Below are positions 19,420 to 54,593 of a DNA stretch of 64,000 nt, in pieces. Both the position numbers and the translations under genes were made by a program. The DNA is from Escherichia coli. GTDB taxonomy: Bacteria; Pseudomonadota; Gammaproteobacteria; Enterobacterales; Enterobacteriaceae. Within the stretch, counting starts at the first letter, position 1, and each line of letters opens with the position of its first letter. The notes under the pieces were generated by a model. That model saw only the letters and a list, made by a program, of their open reading frames with translations, had not been told where the DNA came from and did not search any database. The stretch is taken from NCBI RefSeq assembly GCF_003334405.1, contig NZ_QOWM01000002.1; one strand, given 5' to 3'.

Positions 19420-21666
19420 ATGCTCACTCGCCTGCGCGAAATAGTCGAAAAGGTAGCCAGCGCACCACGCCTGAATGAGGCGTTAAATATTCTGGTTACC
19501 GACATCTGTCTTGCGATGGATACCGAGGTCTGTTCGGTCTACCTGGCCGATCATGATCGACGTTGTTACTACCTGATGGCGACCCGGGGGCTGAAAAAAC
19601 CACGCGGTCGCACTGTAACGCTCGCGTTTGATGAAGGGATCGTCGGCCTGGTTGGCAGGCTGGCGGAACCGATAAACCTTGCAGATGCGCAAAAGCACCC
19701 CAGCTTCAAATACATCCCCTCCGTAAAAGAAGAACGTTTCCGCGCGTTTTTAGGCGTACCAATTATTCAACGTCGCCAGTTGCTTGGTGTACTGGTGGTA
19801 CAGCAACGAGAGTTGCGCCAGTATGACGAAAGTGAAGAATCCTTCCTGGTGACGCTTGCCACCCAGATGGCAGCTATTCTTTCTCAGTCGCAGTTGACTG
19901 CCTTGTTTGGGCAATATCGCCAGACGCGAATCCGCGCATTACCGGCAGCACCTGGTGTGGCGATTGCCGAAGGCTGGCAGGATGCCACGTTACCTTTAAT
20001 GGAACAGGTGTATCAGGCATCAACGCTGGATCCGGCTCTGGAACGCGAACGACTGACCGGGGCGCTGGAAGAAGCGGCAAACGAGTTTCGCCGCTACAGC
20101 AAACGCTTTGCCGCCGGTGCACAAAAAGAAACGGCGGCTATTTTCGATCTTTACTCGCACCTGCTTTCGGACACCCGGCTGCGTCGCGAATTGTTTGCCG
20201 AGGTTGATAAAGGCTCGGTGGCAGAGTGGGCGGTAAAAACGGTCATTGAAAAATTTGCCGAACAGTTTGCCGCGCTAAGTGATAACTATCTCAAAGAGCG
20301 GGCTGGCGATTTACGTGCGCTGGGTCAGCGATTGCTGTTTCATCTTGATGACGCTAATCAAGGGCCGAACGCCTGGCCGGAACGTTTCATTCTGGTGGCA
20401 GATGAACTGTCAGCGACAACGCTTGCTGAGCTGCCCCAGGATCGCTTAGTCGGTGTTGTCGTGCGAGATGGCGCAGCCAACTCCCATGCTGCGATCATGG
20501 TACGTGCGCTGGGGATCCCTACCGTGATGGGCGCGGATATTCAGCCTTCGGTGCTGCATCGTAGGACGCTGATCGTTGATGGCTATCGCGGTGAATTGCT
20601 GGTCGATCCGGAGCCGGTACTGCTGCAAGAATATCAGCGGCTAATTAGTGAAGAGATTGAGCTTAGCCGTCTGGCGGAAGATGACGTCAATTTACCCGCG
20701 CAGTTAAAAAGCGGTGAGCGTATAAAAGTCATGCTCAATGCTGGTTTAAGCCCGGAACATGAAGAAAAACTGGGCAGCCGTATTGATGGCATCGGTCTTT
20801 ATCGCACTGAAATCCCATTCATGCTGCAAAGTGGTTTCCCGTCGGAAGAAGAACAGGTGGCGCAGTATCAGGGGATGCTGCAAATGTTCAATGATAAACC
20901 CGTCACCTTGCGTACGCTGGATGTCGGAGCAGATAAGCAGCTGCCTTACATGCCGATCAGCGAAGAGAATCCATGCCTGGGTTGGCGTGGGATTCGCATT
21001 ACGCTCGATCAGCCGGAGATCTTCTTGATCCAGGTGCGGGCGATGCTGCGTGCTAATGCCGCTACGGGCAACCTGAATATTCTGTTGCCGATGGTCACAA
21101 GCCTCGATGAAGTTGATGAAGCACGCCGCCTGATTGAACGTGCCGGACGTGAAGTCGAGGAGATGATCGGTTACGAAATTCCCAAACCACGTATCGGCAT
21201 CATGCTGGAAGTGCCGTCAATGGTATTTATGCTGCCGCATCTGGCAAAGCGGGTCGATTTCATCTCTGTTGGCACCAACGATCTGACTCAATACATTCTG
21301 GCCGTTGATCGCAACAATACCCGGGTGGCGAACATTTATGACAGTCTTCATCCTGCAATGTTACGAGCTCTGGCGATGATCGCCCGGGAAGCGGAAATAC
21401 ATGGAATCGATCTCCGTTTGTGCGGTGAAATGGCGGGCGATCCCATGTGCGTGGCAATCCTCATTGGGCTTGGGTATCGCCATCTGTCTATGAACGGACG
21501 TTCTGTAGCGCGGGCAAAATACCTGCTGCGGCGCATTGATTATGCCGAAGCAGAAAATCTTGCGCAGCGTAGTCTGGAAGCGCAACTGGCGACCGAAGTT
21601 CGCCATCAGGTTGCAGCCTTTATGGAGCGTCGCGGCATGGGCGGGCTGATTCGCGGAGGGTTATAG
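19420..21666 (+). CDS. ptsP: PEP-protein phosphotransferase enzyme I-Ntr (GAF domain + enzyme I)
   Basis: 748 aa; N-terminal GAF, C-terminal PEP-utilising enzyme domains; 12 bp after rppH. Confidence 0.94.
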   Translation: MLTRLREIVEKVASAPRLNEALNILVTDICLAMDTEVCSVYLADHDRRCYYLMATRGLKKPRGRTVTLAFDEGIVGLVGRLAEPINLADAQKHPSFKYIPSVKEERFRAFLGVPIIQRRQLLGVLVVQQRELRQYDESEESFLVTLATQMAAILSQSQLTALFGQYRQTRIRALPAAPGVAIAEGWQDATLPLMEQVYQASTLDPALERERLTGALEEAANEFRRYSKRFAAGAQKETAAIFDLYSHLLSDTRLRRELFAEVDKGSVAEWAVKTVIEKFAEQFAALSDNYLKERAGDLRALGQRLLFHLDDANQGPNAWPERFILVADELSATTLAELPQDRLVGVVVRDGAANSHAAIMVRALGIPTVMGADIQPSVLHRRTLIVDGYRGELLVDPEPVLLQEYQRLISEEIELSRLAEDDVNLPAQLKSGERIKVMLNAGLSPEHEEKLGSRIDGIGLYRTEIPFMLQSGFPSEEEQVAQYQGMLQMFNDKPVTLRTLDVGADKQLPYMPISEENPCLGWRGIRITLDQPEIFLIQVRAMLRANAATGNLNILLPMVTSLDEVDEARRLIERAGREVEEMIGYEIPKPRIGIMLEVPSMVFMLPHLAKRVDFISVGTNDLTQYILAVDRNNTRVANIYDSLHPAMLRALAMIAREAEIHGIDLRLCGEMAGDPMCVAILIGLGYRHLSMNGRSVARAKYLLRRIDYAEAENLAQRSLEAQLATEVRHQVAAFMERRGMGGLIRGGL

Positions 21667-38843: not shown

Positions 38844-40097
38844 ATGTCAGGATCCAACACTGCAATCAGCCGTCGTCGTTTACTGCAAGGCGCGGGTGCC
38901 ATGTGGCTATTGAGCGTAAGTCAGGTCAGTCTGGCTGCGGTCAGCCAGGTCGTGGCGGTGCGCGTCTGGCCTGCGTCCAGCTACACCCGCGTGACGGTGG
39001 AATCAAATCGTCAGCTGAAATATAAGCAGTTCGCGTTGAGTAACCCTGAACGCGTGGTGGTGGATATCGAAGATGTAAACCTGAACTCGGTACTCAAGGG
39101 GATGGCGGCACAAATTCGTGCAGACGACCCGTTCATCAAGTCGGCGCGCGTCGGGCAATTTGACCCGCAAACCGTACGGATGGTTTTTGAATTAAAGCAA
39201 AACGTAAAACCGCAGCTGTTTGCCCTTGCGCCGGTCGCCGGGTTTAAAGAGCGTCTGGTGATGGACCTCTATCCGGCCAATGCACAGGATATGCAGGACC
39301 CGCTGCTGGCGCTGCTGGAGGATTACAACAAAGGCGACCTCGAAAAGCAGGTGCCGCCAGCGCAAAGTGGTCCACAACCGGGTAAAGCAGGGCGCGATCG
39401 TCCGATTGTCATTATGCTTGACCCTGGCCACGGTGGCGAAGACTCCGGTGCGGTGGGGAAATACAAAACGCGCGAAAAAGATGTGGTATTGCAAATAGCT
39501 CGCCGTTTGCGCTCTCTGATCGAGAAAGAGGGCAATATGAAGGTGTACATGACGCGCAATGAAGACATCTTCATTCCATTGCAAGTGCGCGTAGCAAAAG
39601 CCCAGAAACAGCGTGCTGACCTGTTTGTCTCTATCCATGCCGACGCCTTTACCAGTCGTCAGCCGAGCGGTTCCTCTGTGTTTGCGCTCTCAACCAAAGG
39701 TGCAACCAGTACTGCGGCAAAATATCTGGCACAAACCCAGAACGCCTCGGACTTGATTGGTGGCGTGAGCAAAAGCGGTGACCGCTATGTCGACCACACC
39801 ATGTTCGATATGGTACAGTCGCTGACCATTGCCGACAGCCTGAAGTTTGGTAAAGCGGTACTGAATAAGCTCGGTAAAATCAACAAGCTGCATAAAAATC
39901 AAGTTGAACAGGCCGGGTTTGCCGTACTAAAGGCACCAGATATTCCCTCCATTCTGGTCGAAACGGCGTTTATCAGTAACGTTGAGGAAGAGCGTAAACT
40001 GAAAACGGCGACTTTCCAGCAGGAAGTTGCGGAGTCTATTCTTGCGGGGATTAAAGCGTATTTTGCCGATGGGGCGACGCTGGCGAGAAGGGGATGA
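38844..40097 (+). CDS. amiC: N-acetylmuramoyl-L-alanine amidase AmiC (Tat-exported)
   Basis: 417 aa from ATG 38844; twin-arginine signal SRRRLLQG; amidase_3 domain; track ORF is extended from 38754. Confidence 0.93.
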
Positions 40098-40100
40098 TAA

Positions 40101-40127
40101 AAAGGCGCTGAATGGCGCTTTTTTATG
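40101..40127 (+). terminator. Hairpin + T-run after amiC
   Basis: AAAAAGGCGC-TGAATG-GCGCTTTTTT; short GC stem extended by A:T pairs, then T6. Confidence 0.4.
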
Positions 40128-40140
40128 GGAGACCAGAAAC

Positions 40141-40164
40141 AAAAAAACACCCGTTAGGGTGTTC
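40141..40164 (-). terminator. Rho-independent terminator of the tRNA-fMet transcript
   Basis: On the minus strand, immediately 3' of the tRNA: ACACCC-UAAC-GGGUGU followed by U7. Confidence 0.7.
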
Positions 40165-40170
40165 AATAAT

Positions 40171-40247
<77 letters not shown>

Positions 40248-40455
40248 TCCGTGGATGCGCACTATACTCCGCTCGCGTTTTCATGCAACCTTTTTTTTAC
40301 CCCGATCACGGATTTGGCATGATTTTGAACAAAAACAAATCACTAAAGCCTATTTTTTGTGCAAAATTTGCGTCAGGGAGAGGCTGCTCATTTCATTAAA
40401 CGCGGCGGTTTGTTATCTTCGTTGCGCCTTATTTTTTAACCTGAAGAAGAGAACA

Positions 40456-41553
40456 ATGAAAGGACGTTGGGTAAAGTACCTTCTTATGGGCACGGTTGTG
40501 GCAATGCTTGCCGCCTGCTCTTCCAAACCAACCGATCGCGGACAGCAATATAAAGACGGGAAATTTACCCAGCCTTTCTCTCTGGTGAACCAGCCAGATG
40601 CCGTTGGCGCGCCGATTAACGCCGGTGATTTTGCCGAGCAAATTAACCATATCCGTAATTCGTCACCGCGTCTGTATGGCAACCAGAGTAATGTTTATAA
40701 CGCGGTGCAAGAGTGGCTGCGCGCAGGCGGTGATACCCGCAATATGCGCCAGTTCGGCATTGATGCCTGGCAGATGGAAGGTGCCGACAACTATGGTAAC
40801 GTGCAGTTTACCGGTTATTACACGCCGGTAATTCAGGCGCGCCATACCCGCCAGGGCGAGTTCCAGTATCCTATTTACCGTATGCCGCCAAAACGTGGTC
40901 GTCTGCCGTCTCGTGCGGAGATCTACGCGGGGGCATTGAGTGATAAATATATTCTCGCTTACAGTAACTCCCTGATGGATAACTTCATTATGGATGTGCA
41001 GGGTAGTGGGTATATCGACTTTGGTGATGGCAGTCCGCTTAACTTTTTCAGCTATGCAGGGAAAAACGGTCATGCCTATCGCAGCATTGGTAAGGTGCTG
41101 ATCGACCGTGGCGAAGTGAAAAAAGAAGATATGTCGATGCAGGCGATTCGTCACTGGGGCGAAACACACAGTGAAGCCGAGGTTCGCGAGCTGCTGGAAC
41201 AGAACCCGTCTTTCGTCTTCTTTAAACCGCAATCTTTTGCTCCGGTGAAAGGGGCAAGTGCGGTGCCGCTGGTTGGTCGCGCGTCAGTTGCCTCTGATCG
41301 TTCCATTATTCCGCCAGGTACTACCTTGCTGGCAGAAGTGCCGTTGCTGGATAATAACGGCAAATTTAATGGTCAGTACGAACTGCGTCTGATGGTGGCG
41401 CTGGATGTCGGTGGTGCAATCAAAGGCCAACACTTCGATATCTATCAAGGGATCGGGCCGGAAGCCGGACACCGCGCAGGTTGGTACAACCACTATGGAC
41501 GTGTCTGGGTGCTGAAAACCGCCCCGGGCGCAGGTAACGTCTTTAGCGGCTGA
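40456..41553 (+). CDS. mltA: Membrane-bound lytic murein transglycosylase A (lipoprotein)
   Basis: 365 aa from ATG 40456 (MKGRWVKYLLMGTVVAMLAACSS..., lipobox LAAC); the 508-aa track ORF reads through the tRNA and is rejected. Confidence 0.93.
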   Translation: MKGRWVKYLLMGTVVAMLAACSSKPTDRGQQYKDGKFTQPFSLVNQPDAVGAPINAGDFAEQINHIRNSSPRLYGNQSNVYNAVQEWLRAGGDTRNMRQFGIDAWQMEGADNYGNVQFTGYYTPVIQARHTRQGEFQYPIYRMPPKRGRLPSRAEIYAGALSDKYILAYSNSLMDNFIMDVQGSGYIDFGDGSPLNFFSYAGKNGHAYRSIGKVLIDRGEVKKEDMSMQAIRHWGETHSEAEVRELLEQNPSFVFFKPQSFAPVKGASAVPLVGRASVASDRSIIPPGTTLLAEVPLLDNNGKFNGQYELRLMVALDVGGAIKGQHFDIYQGIGPEAGHRAGWYNHYGRVWVLKTAPGAGNVFSG

Positions 41554-47534: not shown

Positions 47535-48266
47535 TCAGGCTGTTACCAAAGAAGTTGCAACCTGGCGCTCATCAGAAATAATGTGCGTTACCTCATCCAG
47601 ATGCCCGATGCGGGCTTCCCCTGAACGATTAAATTTACTTTTATCAATCAATAACAACGATTGCGCGGCACGTTTTAATAGCATCGATTTGTAATCAGCG
47701 TTGATCGCATTGGAGTCCCACAGTGCGCCGCTGCTATCGATCCCTTCACAAGAAAAAATAAACAGATCGATTTCCAGCGATTTAAGTTGGGAAATCAGCG
47801 AGGGATTGACGTAACAGCCATATTTGCGCTCAAGTGTGCCGCCGGAACTGATCAGTTGAATGCGTTCGCGTTTACCGAGTTCATGGCAAATCGGATGGCT
47901 ATTGGTGAAGACCTGAATGTTGATGTCAGGCAACTGGCGTGCCAGATACCAGCAAGTTGAACTGGCGTCTAAGGCTATCACCATCCCTTCTTCAATCCAC
48001 GCGAGCGCCTCGCGCGCGATATCTGCTTTATGCGCATAATGGCTTTTCAGCCTGATGTGAAAGGGATCGCCACTGTCTTGATTTTGACGGTGGATATATT
48101 TAGCGCGTCCATGATTGCGCAGAATTTTACCCTGCGTCTGTAATTCATTGAGATCGCGACGAATGGTTTCTTTACTGACCTTTAGCTGTTCAGAGAGAGC
48201 TTCCGTGGTCAGGCTGGTATGGTTCAGCAGCAGGTCGACTATCGCTTGCTGGCGTGCCGCTTTCAT
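47535..48266 (-). CDS. fucR: L-fucose operon activator (DeoR family)
   Basis: 243 aa from ATG (MKAARQQAIVDLL...); N-terminal DeoR HTH; track ORF begins 3 codons earlier at GTG. Confidence 0.92.
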   Translation of the reverse strand: MKAARQQAIVDLLLNHTSLTTEALSEQLKVSKETIRRDLNELQTQGKILRNHGRAKYIHRQNQDSGDPFHIRLKSHYAHKADIAREALAWIEEGMVIALDASSTCWYLARQLPDINIQVFTNSHPICHELGKRERIQLISSGGTLERKYGCYVNPSLISQLKSLEIDLFIFSCEGIDSSGALWDSNAINADYKSMLLKRAAQSLLLIDKSKFNRSGEARIGHLDEVTHIISDERQVATSLVTA

Positions 48267-52082: not shown

Positions 52083-53399
52083 TCAGTTAGTTGCCGTTTG
52101 AGAACGGAAACGGGCAAAGATAAAGATGACCGCGAAGCAGAGTGCGGGGATCAGTTCAGCAGTGGGGATGTTGCCCGCCGCGTCACTGACAAAACCCATG
52201 ACCGGAGTGACAATACCGCCGCCAATAATGGTCATAACGATGAAGGACGAACCATATTTGGTGTCCTGGCCGAGATTCTTAATGCCCAGCGAGAAGATTG
52301 TTGGGTACTGAATCGACATAAAGGCGCTGCATAAAGTCAGGGCTATTAAGCCCACATGACCGCCAGCGAAGGCTGAGATCAGGCACAGTGCCATAGCGAT
52401 TAATGCGTAGGCGGCCAGGACTTTGTGTGGTGCGAAGCGACTGATGAGCCAGGTACCGGTGAAACGACCAATAAAGAAGCACACCATGGTTCCGGTTAAA
52501 TAGTTAGCGGCAAAGCCTGCAGTCATACCTGGAATTTCTTCTACAGCGTAGCGAATCAAATAGCTCCAGCAGGCCGTTTGTGCGCCGACATAGCAGAATT
52601 GCGCTAATACCGCCCAGCGCCAGTGGCGAATACGCGCCAGGCGAGAAAGCGATGCGGAGAACGATCCTTGTTTGGCGTCACTGTGATTATCACTCTGCAA
52701 TGCCGGGAATTTCGTCAGCATGATCAGCAGGGCGACCAGTAACACGATAGCCACGATGATCATATAAGGTGTCTGTACCGATAATACCAGGCTGTGTTTA
52801 TACGCACTCAATTGCTCTGGAGACATTTTATCGAGAACGTCTTGCGATTGATGTGGCACGTTAGACAAAATAAGACTTTGCCCAAAGACAACCGCGATAA
52901 TTGCGCCAAACGAGTTAAATGTTTGCGCAAGATTTAAGCGGAAGTGACCACTACTTTCCGGCCCTAATACCGTAACAAAAGGGTTTGCGGCAGTTTCCAG
53001 ACAACCTAATCCGGCTGCAATAATAAATAGGCCAACTAAAAATAAGGTGTAGTTCATTATTTCTGCGGCGGGCCAGAATAATGCAGCACCCAAGGCATAT
53101 AAAAATAACCCGGTAATAATCCCTGCTTTATAACTGAGTTTTTTCATCAATATCCCAGCAGGGATTGGGATAATGAAATAACCAAAGTAAAAGGCCGATT
53201 GGATCAGGCCAGCCTGGAAATTTGTCAGCGTAAAAGCCTGCTGGAATTGAGGTAATAAAATGTCGTTAAGGTTATTGGCTACCGCCCAAAGAAAAAACAG
53301 TGAGCACAGCAGCGCGAATGGAATAATGTAACTTCTGCTTTGCCCTGCATCTTTATCTACCGCACGGTAACTCTGCGTTTGTATTGATGTGTTTCCCAT
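52083..53399 (-). CDS. fucP: L-fucose:H+ symporter (MFS)
   Basis: 438 aa; 12-TM MFS. Confidence 0.95.
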   Translation of the reverse strand: MGNTSIQTQSYRAVDKDAGQSRSYIIPFALLCSLFFLWAVANNLNDILLPQFQQAFTLTNFQAGLIQSAFYFGYFIIPIPAGILMKKLSYKAGIITGLFLYALGAALFWPAAEIMNYTLFLVGLFIIAAGLGCLETAANPFVTVLGPESSGHFRLNLAQTFNSFGAIIAVVFGQSLILSNVPHQSQDVLDKMSPEQLSAYKHSLVLSVQTPYMIIVAIVLLVALLIMLTKFPALQSDNHSDAKQGSFSASLSRLARIRHWRWAVLAQFCYVGAQTACWSYLIRYAVEEIPGMTAGFAANYLTGTMVCFFIGRFTGTWLISRFAPHKVLAAYALIAMALCLISAFAGGHVGLIALTLCSAFMSIQYPTIFSLGIKNLGQDTKYGSSFIVMTIIGGGIVTPVMGFVSDAAGNIPTAELIPALCFAVIFIFARFRSQTATN

Positions 53400-53578
53400 A
53401 GCATCCTCTTAGGTTCAGAAGCTTAAGCACGTAATCGGTTATGTTTTCAAAAGTGCAAAACCAGCGAGTTCGGGCTTCATATCAGTGAATATTTGCCTGT
53501 CTGAAATGAACTCATGGATTCATTTTCAAATAAAAAACGCTCTGTAATATGACGGCGGTCACACTTATTAGCTAGAAG

Positions 53579-53594
53579 GTGACTTTATGTGACT
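53579..53594. promoter_or_regulatory. CRP-binding-site candidate in the fucP/fucA divergent control region
   Basis: TGTGA-CTACCA-TCACT matches the CRP consensus TGTGA-N6-TCACA at 9 of 10 positions. Confidence 0.5.
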
Positions 53595-53661
53595 ACCATC
53601 ACTTTAATAATCGAAATTTCATGCCCGTTTCAGAAAATAAATCATAAAAAACACAAATCAG

Positions 53662-53756
53662 ATGACCGTATTAATTGTTTGTGCCGAAAACGGTCATTCC
53701 GGGCTTGGAGGAATAGAAAAATGACCGTTTTGATAAATATTTTTAAGAGCGGTCAT
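53662..53756. promoter_or_regulatory. Two dyad operators, ATGACCGT-N20-(A/G)CGGTCAT; likely FucR sites
   Basis: ATGACCGT at 53662-53669 and 53721-53728, each paired with (A/G)CGGTCAT 20 nt downstream (53690-53697; 53749-53756); the two dyads are 59 bp apart. Confidence 0.5.
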
Positions 53757-53945
53757 TTTTAATGGGGTTATAAAAAGAGAACTTGCAGTTATTTACTGTG
53801 ATTAGTTGAACCAGGTCACAAAATATAAGCTTGTGAATTTCTTTCTTGTTAATCAGGAAGAAGATGGTGGGTAATTAAACGGCTAATTCAATAGTGTGAA
53901 AGGAACAACATTATTGCCCTGTTTTGAATCAGAGAGAGGTAGCTA

Positions 53946-54593
53946 ATGGAACGAAATAAACTTGCTCGTCAGATTATTGACACTTGCCTGGAAATGACCC
54001 GCCTGGGACTGAACCAGGGGACAGCGGGGAACGTCAGTGTACGTTATCAGGATGGGATGCTGATTACGCCTACAGGCATTCCATATGAAAAACTGACGGA
54101 GTCGCATATTGTCTTTATTGATGGCAACGGTAAACATGAGGAAGGAAAGCTCCCCTCAAGCGAATGGCGTTTCCATATGGCAGCCTATCAAAGCAGACCG
54201 GATGCCAACGCGGTTGTTCACAATCATGCCGTTCATTGCACGGCAGTTTCCATTCTTAACCGATCGATCCCCGCTATTCACTACATGATTGCGGCGGCTG
54301 GCGGTAATTCTATTCCTTGCGCGCCTTATGCGACCTTTGGAACACGCGAACTTTCTGAACATGTTGCGCTGGCTCTCAAAAATCGTAAGGCAACTTTGTT
54401 ACAACATCATGGGCTTATCGCTTGTGAGGTGAATCTGGAAAAAGCGTTATGGCTGGCGCATGAAGTTGAAGTGCTGGCGCAACTTTACCTGACGACCCTG
54501 GCGATTACGGACCCGGTGCCAGTGCTGAGCGATGAAGAGATTGCCGTAGTGCTGGAGAAATTCAAAACCTATGGGTTACGAATTGAAGAGTAA
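53946..54593 (+). CDS. fucA: L-fuculose-phosphate aldolase (class II)
   Basis: 215 aa; class II aldolase/adducin family. Confidence 0.95.
   Translation: MERNKLARQIIDTCLEMTRLGLNQGTAGNVSVRYQDGMLITPTGIPYEKLTESHIVFIDGNGKHEEGKLPSSEWRFHMAAYQSRPDANAVVHNHAVHCTAVSILNRSIPAIHYMIAAAGGNSIPCAPYATFGTRELSEHVALALKNRKATLLQHHGLIACEVNLEKALWLAHEVEVLAQLYLTTLAITDPVPVLSDEEIAVVLEKFKTYGLRIEE

What the first reader, a model, noticed from the sequence alone, without database searches (positions are those of the whole stretch)
53553..53760. Paired dyad operators and a CRP-like site in the fucPIK/fucAO divergent control region
Two copies of ATGACCGT-N20-(A/G)CGGTCAT (53662-53697 and 53721-53756), 59 bp apart, sit between fucP and fucA, with a near-consensus CRP site (TGTGA-N6-TCACT, 53579-53594) upstream. 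The regular spacing suggests two adjacent dimer sites for the DeoR-type activator FucR. I do not recall the FucR operator sequence with certainty, so the assignment is inferred.
Basis: partly seen in the sequence, partly recalled or inferred. Interest (0 to 1): 0.3.

Follow-up and report, generated by a model that had tools for sequence, protein, structure and literature searches.

The report
Known FucR and CRP sites, fuc control region
The two repeats and the CRP-like site are real and belong to the already-studied switch that turns on the E. coli fucose genes; what is new here is that the sites form a five-element layout with fixed spacing, conserved across enteric bacteria.

Summary
The window is an E. 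coli chromosome. The 546-bp spacer (53400-53945) separates fucP (-) from fucA (+). The CRP-like site exists but lies at 53588-53603, 9 bp right of the stated position.

The right arms of the two dyads are OFucR2 (CCGAAAACGGTCATT, 53684-53698) and OFucR3 (TTAAGAGCGGTCATT, 53743-53757). Mutating them lowers fucose induction of PfucAO by about 30% and more than 50-fold (PMC11011485). The CRP site is OCrp1 of the fucPIK promoter.

Comparison of 46 orthologous fucP-fucA spacers adds the following:
- A fifth half-site (53621-53628).
- Left arms as conserved as right arms.
- Arm-to-arm spacing fixed at 28/29 bp.
- Two rigid modules, [OCrp0-OCrp1-A-B-C] and [D-E-OCrp2], joined by a variable linker of 20-145 bp.

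One FucR dimer per dyad remains unproven. Published truncations lacking the left arms keep 70-100% of PfucAO activity. Verdict: already known, low interest.

The parts
53545..53566 (.). OCrp0, the CRP site proximal to the fucPIK promoter (taaTaTGAcggcggTCACActt; core 53548-53563)
   Evidence: The sequence quoted in PMC11894529 matches the window. 7-9 of 10 core positions are kept in all 47 spacers, and it lies 39/40 bp from OCrp1 in 46 of 47.
53572..53575 (.). CTAG, the IS5 target that activates fucAO and silences fucPIK
   Evidence: Given as -374 to -371 from the fucA ATG in PMC11894529, which is 53572-53575 here. An insertion there separates the fucPIK promoter and OCrp0 from OCrp1 and all FucR sites.
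53588..53603 (.).
   Evidence: 9 of 10 core positions in 47 of 47 spacers, and 29/30 bp from site A in 41 of 41. Described as a fucPIK CRP site that PfucAO does not need (PMC11011485).
53620..53631 (-). FucR half-site A (+ strand CATGCCCGTTTC; reads GAAACGGGCATG towards fucP).
   Evidence: One mismatch to ATGACCGT in E. coli, perfect in most other genera. Conserved block in the phylogenetic footprint. PWM score 14.7. The A-B distance is 40-42 bp in 41 of 41 spacers.
53644..53656 (.). Conserved unassigned block ATAAAAAACACAA (TTAAAACCCACAG in other genera), centred about 28 bp from site A
   Evidence: High information content in the anchored alignment. In some Photorhabdus species (L075, L076, L078, L080) this position carries a real half-site, AATTCGGTCAT(A/G). 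It is not the SrsR box, which lies at 53456-53466.
53661..53672 (-). FucR half-site B, the left arm of dyad 1 (ATGACCGT 53662-53669)
   Evidence: Conserved. Absent from truncation V5 (starts at 53676), which keeps full PfucAO activity.
53684..53698 (+). FucR half-site C, the right arm of dyad 1, identical to published OFucR2 (CCGAAAACGGTCATT)
   Evidence: Mutation gives about 30% loss of fucose-induced PfucAO activity (PMC11011485). B-C is 28 bp in 44 of 46 spacers and 29 bp in 2.
53720..53731 (-). FucR half-site D, the left arm of dyad 2 (ATGACCGT 53721-53728)
   Evidence: Conserved. Absent from truncation V6 (starts at 53740), which keeps about 70% activity.
53743..53757 (+). FucR half-site E, the right arm of dyad 2, identical to published OFucR3 (TTAAGAGCGGTCATT)
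   Evidence: Mutation lowers fucose-induced PfucAO activity more than 50-fold (PMC11011485). D-E is 28/29 bp in 38 of 38 spacers and E-OCrp2 is 59/60 bp in 38 of 38.
53802..53823 (.). OCrp2, the CRP site essential for PfucAO (ttagtTGAaccaggTCACAaaa), centred at -70.5 from the 5'RACE start site C at 53883
   Evidence: PMC11011485. Conserved in the footprint.
47535..48266 (-). fucR, the DeoR/GlpR-family activator that reads the half-sites
   Evidence: NF007720 'L-fucose operon activator', 508 bits against a cutoff of 259, full length 1-243.

Best explanation
This is the shared control region of the divergent fucPIKUR and fucAO operons of E. coli. It holds five copies of an asymmetric FucR recognition element (core AAACGG[T/G]CAT). 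Sites A, B and D point towards fucP; sites C and E point towards fucA. At PfucAO, occupancy of E (OFucR3), helped slightly by C (OFucR2), promotes CRP-cAMP action at OCrp2 (-70.5), and CRP then recruits RNA polymerase. That much is published. Inferred here from comparative data: (i) the convergent pair with 28 bp between arm centres is the structural unit, probably two winged-helix domains of one FucR oligomer across an AT-rich spacer; (ii) the region consists of two rigid, promoter-specific modules, [OCrp0-40-OCrp1-29-A-41-B-28-C] for fucPIK and [D-28-E-60-OCrp2] for fucAO; (iii) these are joined by a linker (C-D) that is free to vary; (iv) dyad centres lie a whole number of helical turns from the neighbouring CRP site (84 bp and 74 bp), so FucR and CRP would sit on the same DNA face.
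For: Shown by others: the OFucR2 and OFucR3 sequences equal the right arms, and mutating them costs about 30% and more than 50-fold of induction. Mutating OCrp2 costs 350-fold. The start site is at -63 from the ATG (PMC11011485). All FucR sites lie to the right of the IS5 target, which explains the Fuc- phenotype of IS5 mutants (PMC11894529). Shown here: exact dyads, 0.04 expected by chance. fucR is present. In 46 orthologous divergent fucP-fucA spacers, with FucA identity from 100% down to 77% (Escherichia to Yersinia and Photorhabdus), the conserved blocks coincide with A-E and the CRP sites. 33 of 43 non-Escherichia spacers have a convergent pair at 28/29 bp, against 0 in 200 shuffles. The derived motif has informative A-A at the unselected positions -2 and -1, matching the published consensus. 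Spacings: B-C 28 bp (44 of 46), D-E 28/29 bp (38 of 38), OCrp1-A 29/30 bp (41 of 41), A-B 40-42 bp, E-OCrp2 59/60 bp (38 of 38), C-D 20-145 bp. 28/29-bp dyads recur upstream of fucA in Edwardsiella and Serratia sp. DD3, which have a distant FucP or none.
Against: PfucAO truncations lacking A and B (V5, from 53676) keep full activity. V6 (from 53740), lacking A-D, keeps about 70%. So the left arms are not required for fucAO activation in that single-copy reporter. The published in vitro motif is a single asymmetric 15-mer, not a palindrome. Site A has no recognisable partner in E. coli. 28 bp is about 95 A of straight DNA, which is long for one dimer without bending. No footprint, stoichiometry or structure of FucR on DNA was found in the held literature. 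No mutational data exist for A, B or D, or for any FucR site at PfucPIK; PMC11894529 calls OR0 and OR1 'putative'. The 47 sequences are phylogenetically related, so counts overstate independence. The PWM enrichment is circular because the PWM was trained on the spacers; one search is the unbiased version.
Confidence: 0.85

Rival explanations
1. Each half-site is an independent FucR site, and the convergent pairing is incidental. FucR acts from single elements in an orientation-specific way: C and E for fucAO; A, B and D for fucPIK.
For: V5 and V6 truncations keep 100% and about 70% of PfucAO activity without the left arms. The published motif is an asymmetric 15-mer. The validated sites C and E both point towards fucA. 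The arms diverge independently between species.
Against: Arm-to-arm distance is 28/29 bp in 46 of 46 (B-C) and 38 of 38 (D-E) spacers, while the neighbouring C-D interval ranges from 20 to 145 bp. Dyads with the same spacing recur in other contexts. No convergent pair at this spacing appears in shuffles.
Confidence: 0.3
2. The functional unit is the inner divergent pair C/D. This is the longest perfect inverted repeat in E. coli: AAAACGGTCATT / AATGACCGTTTT, 12 nt, 21 nt apart.
For: Inverted repeat I5 is 12 nt and 100% complementary.
Against: C-D spacing is the only variable interval among the sites: 20, 24-31, 38, 47-53 and 145 bp across genera. Divergent-pair distances show no dominant value.
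Confidence: 0.03
3. The dyads act as nucleic-acid secondary structure: an RNA hairpin, terminator or attenuator, or a DNA cruciform.
For: RNA folding of 53650-53770 gives -33.8 kcal/mol, z = -3.2 against shuffles.
Against: The region lies upstream of both promoters: the fucA start site is at 53883, and the fucPIK promoter lies to the left of OCrp0. There is no terminator-like hit. There is no covariation: only 1 of 36 and 2 of 28 unique arm pairs are perfectly self-complementary, and identity at variable positions equals the independent expectation.
Confidence: 0.02
4. The elements are read by a regulator other than FucR.
For: No direct FucR footprint could be read in the held literature. SrsR also binds this spacer in vitro.
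Against: Mutating C or E removes fucose (FucR)-dependent induction but not basal activity. The motif is attributed to an in vitro FucR-DNA binding assay. The SrsR box is elsewhere (53456-53466) and is irrelevant to PfucAO. The sites co-occur with fuc genes across genera.
Confidence: 0.03

Closest known systems
E. coli fuc regulon control region as mapped by Zhang et al. 2024 (PMC11011485) and 2025 (PMC11894529): OCrp0-3 and OFucR2/3 (OR0-OR3)
   Same: It is the same locus and the same sequences. The IS5 target, start site and truncation end points all map onto the window.
   Different: The text of those papers treats the FucR sites as single 15-mers. The words palindrome, inverted repeat and dimer do not occur in the 2024 paper. 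The left arms and site A are not named in the readable text; OR0 and OR1 are called 'putative' and appear only in a figure. No cross-species spacing analysis is given.
Other E. coli DeoR/GlpR-family operators (GlpR, DeoR, UlaR, AgaR), recalled from general knowledge and not tested here
   Same: The regulator has the same fold (FucR hits the GlpR, AgaR, SrlR, UlaR and DeoR models). All use several repeated short elements spread over tens of bp, a sugar-phosphate effector, and CRP co-regulation.
   Different: Those are repressors released by the effector, whereas FucR is an effector-dependent activator. The FucR half-sites are 28 bp apart centre to centre, a much longer spacer than the compact palindromes or tandem repeats I recall for DeoR and GlpR.
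Multi-site activator plus CRP nucleoprotein regions at divergent or activator-dependent sugar promoters (malEp/malKp with MalT and CRP; melAB with MelR and CRP), recalled from general knowledge
   Same: Several activator sites and several CRP sites share one spacer. Spacing is fixed. The activator and CRP depend on each other, and Zhang et al. propose that FucR helps CRP bind.
   Different: The activator families differ (MalT/LuxR type and AraC type versus DeoR type). Co-binding of FucR and CRP has not been shown physically.

Membership tests
FucR operator (E. coli fuc regulon) | Sequence matches the published FucR motif, ...AAA(A/T)CGG(T/G)CA(T/A)T, with CGG and CA most conserved | tested here: met
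   C and E are literally OFucR2 and OFucR3. A, B and D keep CGG and CA and score 14.7-19.4 on the derived PWM. The T/G alternative at core position 5 matches the published degeneracy.
FucR operator (E. coli fuc regulon) | Lies in the regulatory DNA of fuc genes in a genome that encodes FucR | tested here: met
   Located in the fucP-fucA spacer. fucR lies about 5.1 kb away and matches NF007720 at 508 bits.
   Five sites are conserved in position and orientation across up to 46 spacers from more than 15 genera.
FucR operator (E. coli fuc regulon) | Mutating the element abolishes FucR/fucose-dependent induction | not testable with these tools
   Published for C (about 30%) and E (more than 50-fold) at PfucAO. 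No data for A, B or D. Truncations suggest B and D are dispensable for PfucAO. Nothing is published for PfucPIK in the held papers.
FucR operator (E. coli fuc regulon) | Direct binding by purified FucR with fuculose-1-P (footprint or EMSA) | not testable with these tools
   Only the in vitro genomic binding assay of Baumgart 2021 is cited for the OFucR2 region. That paper is not held.
Symmetric operator bound by one dimer per dyad | Two inverted half-sites at a fixed, conserved distance | tested here: met
   28/29 bp in 46 of 46 (B-C) and 38 of 38 (D-E) spacers. 33 of 43 with the untrained motif against 0 in shuffles.
Symmetric operator bound by one dimer per dyad | Both arms are needed for function | tested here: inconclusive
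   Literature check only. V5 (without B) keeps full PfucAO activity and V6 (without D) keeps about 70%. The effect on PfucPIK and on binding affinity is unknown.
Symmetric operator bound by one dimer per dyad | Stoichiometry of two DNA-binding domains of one oligomer per dyad | not testable with these tools
   No oligomeric-state or structural data for FucR were found.
CRP-cAMP site | Match to TGTGA-N6-TCACA | tested here: met
   TGTGACTACCATCACT at 53588-53603, 9 of 10 core positions. On its own it is not beyond chance in the window.
CRP-cAMP site | Conserved, and at a fixed distance from neighbouring sites | tested here: met
   9 of 10 core positions in 47 of 47 spacers. 39/40 bp from OCrp0 in 46 of 47 and 29/30 bp from site A.
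CRP-cAMP site | Functional dependence on CRP | not testable with these tools
   PMC11011485 and PMC11894529 describe it as OCrp1, important for fucPIK, citing Podolny 1999, which is not held. It is dispensable for PfucAO: V4, starting at 53607, is fully active.
Intrinsic terminator / RNA hairpin | Stem kept by compensatory changes, a T-run, and a position inside a transcript | tested here: not met
   No terminator-like hit. No covariation. The region is upstream of both start sites.

The most novel reading that the evidence does not exclude
FucR may recognise an unusually long-spacer operator: two AAACGG(T/G)CAT elements in convergent orientation, 28 bp centre to centre. It would read this as one structural unit, probably by bending or wrapping the AT-rich spacer. 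The fuc control region would then be two rigid, helically phased FucR-CRP modules, one per promoter, joined by a freely variable linker, with an ancestral third dyad (A plus the block at 53644-53656) that survives intact only in some Photorhabdus species. This architecture is not described in the papers I could read.
Probability: 0.5. Interest if true: 0.35.

Novelty: already known. Interest (0 to 1): 0.15.

Why it matters
The practical value is as a check: a tool-less reader inferred FucR operators and a CRP site correctly, and the literature bears this out. The comparative layout is a modest addition. It consists of five conserved half-sites, invariant 28-bp dyads, two rigid promoter-specific modules, and phasing with CRP. 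It gives testable predictions for the still-unmapped FucR control of fucPIK, and for how a DeoR-type activator (most family members are repressors) cooperates with CRP from -130 and further upstream. It does not open a new kind of system.

Tried and rejected
(1) RNA hairpin or terminator reading. The fold z-score is -3.2, but there is no terminator hit, no covariation, and the region is upstream of both promoters. Rejected.
(2) Inner divergent pair C/D as the unit. Rejected because its spacing varies from 20 to 145 bp.
(3) The conserved block at 53644-53656 as the SrsR box. Rejected: the SrsR box is GCAAAACCAGC at 53456-53466.
(4) Other FucR-motif hits in the window. Strong singletons near 20242 and 41069 lie inside long ORFs and have no partner at 28 bp. 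Treated as chance.
(5) FucA-paralogue loci without fucP (34 of 80). Most lack site clusters. Only Edwardsiella and Serratia sp. DD3 carry dyads.
(6) Papers I could not read: Podolny 1999, Zhang 2010, Chen 1989 and Baumgart 2021 are not held. As a result, the positions of the fucP start site and of 'OR0/OR1' could not be taken from the literature, and the supplements of PMC11894529 do not mention them.
(7) Sigma-70 consensus scan of the spacer: no hits, consistent with activator-dependent promoters.
(8) No whole-genome scan for further dyads was possible.

Full report
WHAT IS THERE. The window matches E. coli chromosomes at 95-100% identity over the 546-bp stretch 53400-53945, in 5,013 of 5,426 complete genomes. 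This stretch is the spacer between fucP (52083-53399, minus strand) and fucA (53946-54593, plus strand). fucI and fucK lie beyond fucP, and fucO lies after fucA. fucR is at 47535-48266 on the minus strand. It matches NCBIfam NF007720 'L-fucose operon activator' at 508 bits against a cutoff of 259, with weaker hits to DeoR/GlpR-family models.

CHECK OF THE OBSERVATION. Both dyads are exactly as described: ATGACCGT (53662-53669)-N20-ACGGTCAT (53690-53697), and ATGACCGT (53721-53728)-N20-GCGGTCAT (53749-53756), 59 bp start to start. Allowing two mismatches, the pattern is found only at these two places in 64 kb, against 0.04 expected. The CRP-like sequence TGTGACTACCATCACT exists but sits at 53588-53603, 9 bp to the right of the stated coordinates. 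As a pattern it is not beyond chance in this window: with up to 1 mismatch there are 7 hits against 3 expected. Its significance comes from conservation and the literature.

WHAT THE LITERATURE ALREADY SAYS. Zhang et al. 2024 (PMC11011485) dissected this same spacer.
- They quote a FucR motif from the in vitro binding screen of Baumgart et al. 2021, with CGG and CA most conserved.
- They name two sites, OFucR2 (CCGAAAACGGTCATT) and OFucR3 (TTAAGAGCGGTCATT).
- Mutating OFucR2 lowers fucose-induced PfucAO activity by about 30%. Mutating OFucR3 lowers it more than 50-fold. Neither affects basal activity.
- OCrp0 and OCrp1 serve fucPIK and are dispensable for PfucAO.
- The IS5 target CTAG (-374 to -371 from the fucA ATG) maps to 53572-53575, between OCrp0 and OCrp1.
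- The 5'RACE start site of fucA is the C at -63, which is 53883. That places OCrp2 at -70.5 and site E at -130.5.
- The 2025 paper speaks of four known FucR sites, all to the right of the IS5 site. Two of them (OR0, OR1) are 'putative' sites for fucPIK, and their positions are not given in the readable text.
- Neither paper describes the sites as inverted repeats or discusses dimers.

A scan of one genome per species with FucA returned 80 loci. Of these, 46 carry a divergent, E. coli-type fucP upstream of fucA. They span Escherichia, Salmonella, Citrobacter, Klebsiella, Raoultella, Kluyvera, Yokenella, Kosakonia, Hafnia, Buttiauxella, Rahnella, Mangrovibacter, Yersinia and Photorhabdus, with FucA identity from 100% down to 77%.
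- In a MAFFT alignment of the 47 spacers, the conserved blocks are the fucP promoter region, OCrp0, OCrp1 and OCrp2. There are also five short blocks, each holding a copy of the CGGTCAT element.
The fifth (A, ATGCCCGT at 53621-53628) has one mismatch in E. coli but is a perfect ATGACCGT in most other genera.
- The mismatch in A is the T/G position that the published motif also allows.
- The left arms are as well conserved as the validated right arms.
- The motif derived from the sites is AAACGG(T/G)CAT. The flanking A-A positions, which played no part in site selection, carry about 1 bit each, in agreement with the published consensus.
It is 7.7-fold enriched in non-Escherichia spacers over coding flanks. 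33 of 43 spacers hold a convergent pair at 28/29 bp, against none in 200 shuffles.

SPACING. The distances between site centres are strikingly uneven in how much they vary.

| Interval | Distance (bp) | Spacers |
|---|---|---|
| OCrp0-OCrp1 | 39/40 | 46 of 47 |
| OCrp1-A | 29/30 | 41 of 41 |
| A-B | 40-42 | 41 of 41 |
| B-C | 28 (29 in 2) | 44 of 46 |
| C-D | 20 to 145 | variable |
| D-E | 28/29 | 38 of 38 |
| E-OCrp2 | 59/60 | 38 of 38 |
| OCrp2-fucA ATG | 90 to 188 | variable |

- The sequence between E and OCrp2 is not conserved although its length is.
- The region is therefore two rigid blocks, [OCrp0-OCrp1-A-B-C] next to the fucPIK promoter and [D-E-OCrp2] next to PfucAO, joined by a linker that tolerates indels.
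- This fits the mutational result that E is critical and C marginal for PfucAO.
- It predicts that A/B/C with OCrp1 and OCrp0 are the fucPIK module.
C/D is the longest perfect inverted repeat in E. coli (12 nt) but has no conserved spacing.
- 28/29-bp dyads also occur upstream of fucA in Edwardsiella (distant FucP) and in Serratia sp. DD3 (no fucP upstream).
- Dyad centres lie 84 bp (B/C to OCrp1) and 74 bp (D/E to OCrp2) from the adjacent CRP site centre. That is 8.0 and 7.05 turns at 10.5 bp per turn. I take this as a hint that FucR and CRP occupy the same DNA face; this is inference.

WHAT IS NOT ESTABLISHED. 'One FucR dimer per dyad' is not shown.
- The published 5' truncations argue that the left arms are not needed for fucAO. 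V5 starts at -270 (53676) and lacks A and B, yet is fully active. V6 starts at -206 (53740), keeps only E, and retains about 70%. V7 (from -166) loses most activity.
- The arms are therefore not obligatorily paired for PfucAO activation in that reporter. Their conservation and fixed spacing may reflect cooperative binding at low FucR levels, a role at fucPIK, or both.
- Across species the two arms of a dyad vary independently. Only 1 of 36 (B/C) and 2 of 28 (D/E) distinct pairs are perfectly self-complementary. The perfect 8/8 symmetry seen in this window is thus a feature of this lineage.
- A hairpin explanation is excluded. It is also ruled out by the absence of terminator-like features and by the position upstream of both promoters, despite a fold z-score of -3.2.

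MECHANISM, WITH STATUS OF EACH STEP.
1. FucR is a DeoR-family protein encoded nearby. Shown.
2. Effector-bound FucR acts through C and E. Shown by others.
3. FucR from -130 acts by helping CRP at OCrp2, which recruits RNA polymerase. This is the authors' model and is not physically shown.
4. A, B and D are also FucR sites. Inferred from motif match and conservation.
5. Convergent arms 28 bp apart form one binding unit. Inferred from spacing invariance and weakened by the truncation data.
6. There are two promoter-specific modules. Inferred.

COMPARISON AND NOVELTY. The feature is the known fuc regulon control region. The FucR and CRP assignments are published. The increment from this analysis is the fifth site, the conservation of the left arms, the rigid 28-bp unit, and the two-module layout. 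These refine a known system and do not make a new kind. Interest is low.

ASIDES.
- A conserved unassigned block (53644-53656) sits where a partner of site A would lie. In some Photorhabdus species (L075, L076, L078, L080) it is a true half-site.
- One natural isolate carries IS1 in the fucP leader, with the target duplication at 53458-53466, on the SrsR box.
- The -35 hexamer quoted in PMC11011485 does not sit at its quoted coordinates in this sequence.

Noticed in passing
It has one mismatch in E. coli but is a perfect ATGACCGT in most other genera. It always lies 29/30 bp from OCrp1 and 40-42 bp from site B.
   Followed up: yes
window 53644-53656: A conserved unassigned block, ATAAAAAACACAA (TTAAAACCCACAG in other genera), centred about 28 bp from site A, where a partner arm would lie. 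In some Photorhabdus species (L075, L076, L078, L080) the position holds a real half-site, AATTCGGTCAT(A/G). It is not the SrsR box. It may be a decayed third dyad or a site for another factor.
   Followed up: partly
window 53458-53466 (locus L081, E. coli EC25, NZ_CM169476.1): A natural IS1A insertion in the fucP leader with a 9-bp target duplication, AAACCAGCG, landing on the reported SrsR box (GCAAAACCAGC, 53456-53466). It is distinct from the well-known IS5 hotspot at 53572-53575.
   Followed up: partly
window 53400-53945 against E. coli genomes: 401 of 5,426 complete E. coli genomes have no match to the fucP-fucA spacer. Some (for example TW10598, hit H12) keep only its last 67 bp. This suggests lineage-specific loss or replacement of the fucPIK side.
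   Followed up: no
window 53831-53836 versus 53850-53855: PMC11011485 gives the PfucAO -35 as TTGtgA at -96 to -91 from the fucA ATG. That position reads TAATCA here. TTGTGA lies at -115 to -110, 36 bp from the quoted -10 (53873-53878). The published -35 assignment looks internally inconsistent. The 5'RACE start site (53883) is unaffected.
   Followed up: partly
window ~20237-20248 and ~41064-41075: Two strong single matches to the FucR element (AAAACGGTCATT, AAAACGGTCATG) inside long ORFs (19420-21666 and 40027-41553), with no partner at 28 bp. Probably chance.
   Followed up: partly
loci L042, L047, L052 (Edwardsiella) and L056 (Serratia sp. DD3): FucR-type dyads with 28/29-bp spacing lie upstream of fucA even where the upstream gene is a distant FucP homologue (about 40% identity) or is not fucP at all. 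Most other FucA-paralogue loci (about 30 of 34) have no such cluster.
   Followed up: partly
loci L001-L003 versus window 53690-53697: Site C (OFucR2) is polymorphic within Escherichia. It reads ACGGTCAT in this window but ACGGGCAT in another E. coli, an Escherichia sp. and E. albertii. So the perfect symmetry of dyad 1 is strain-specific.
   Followed up: yes
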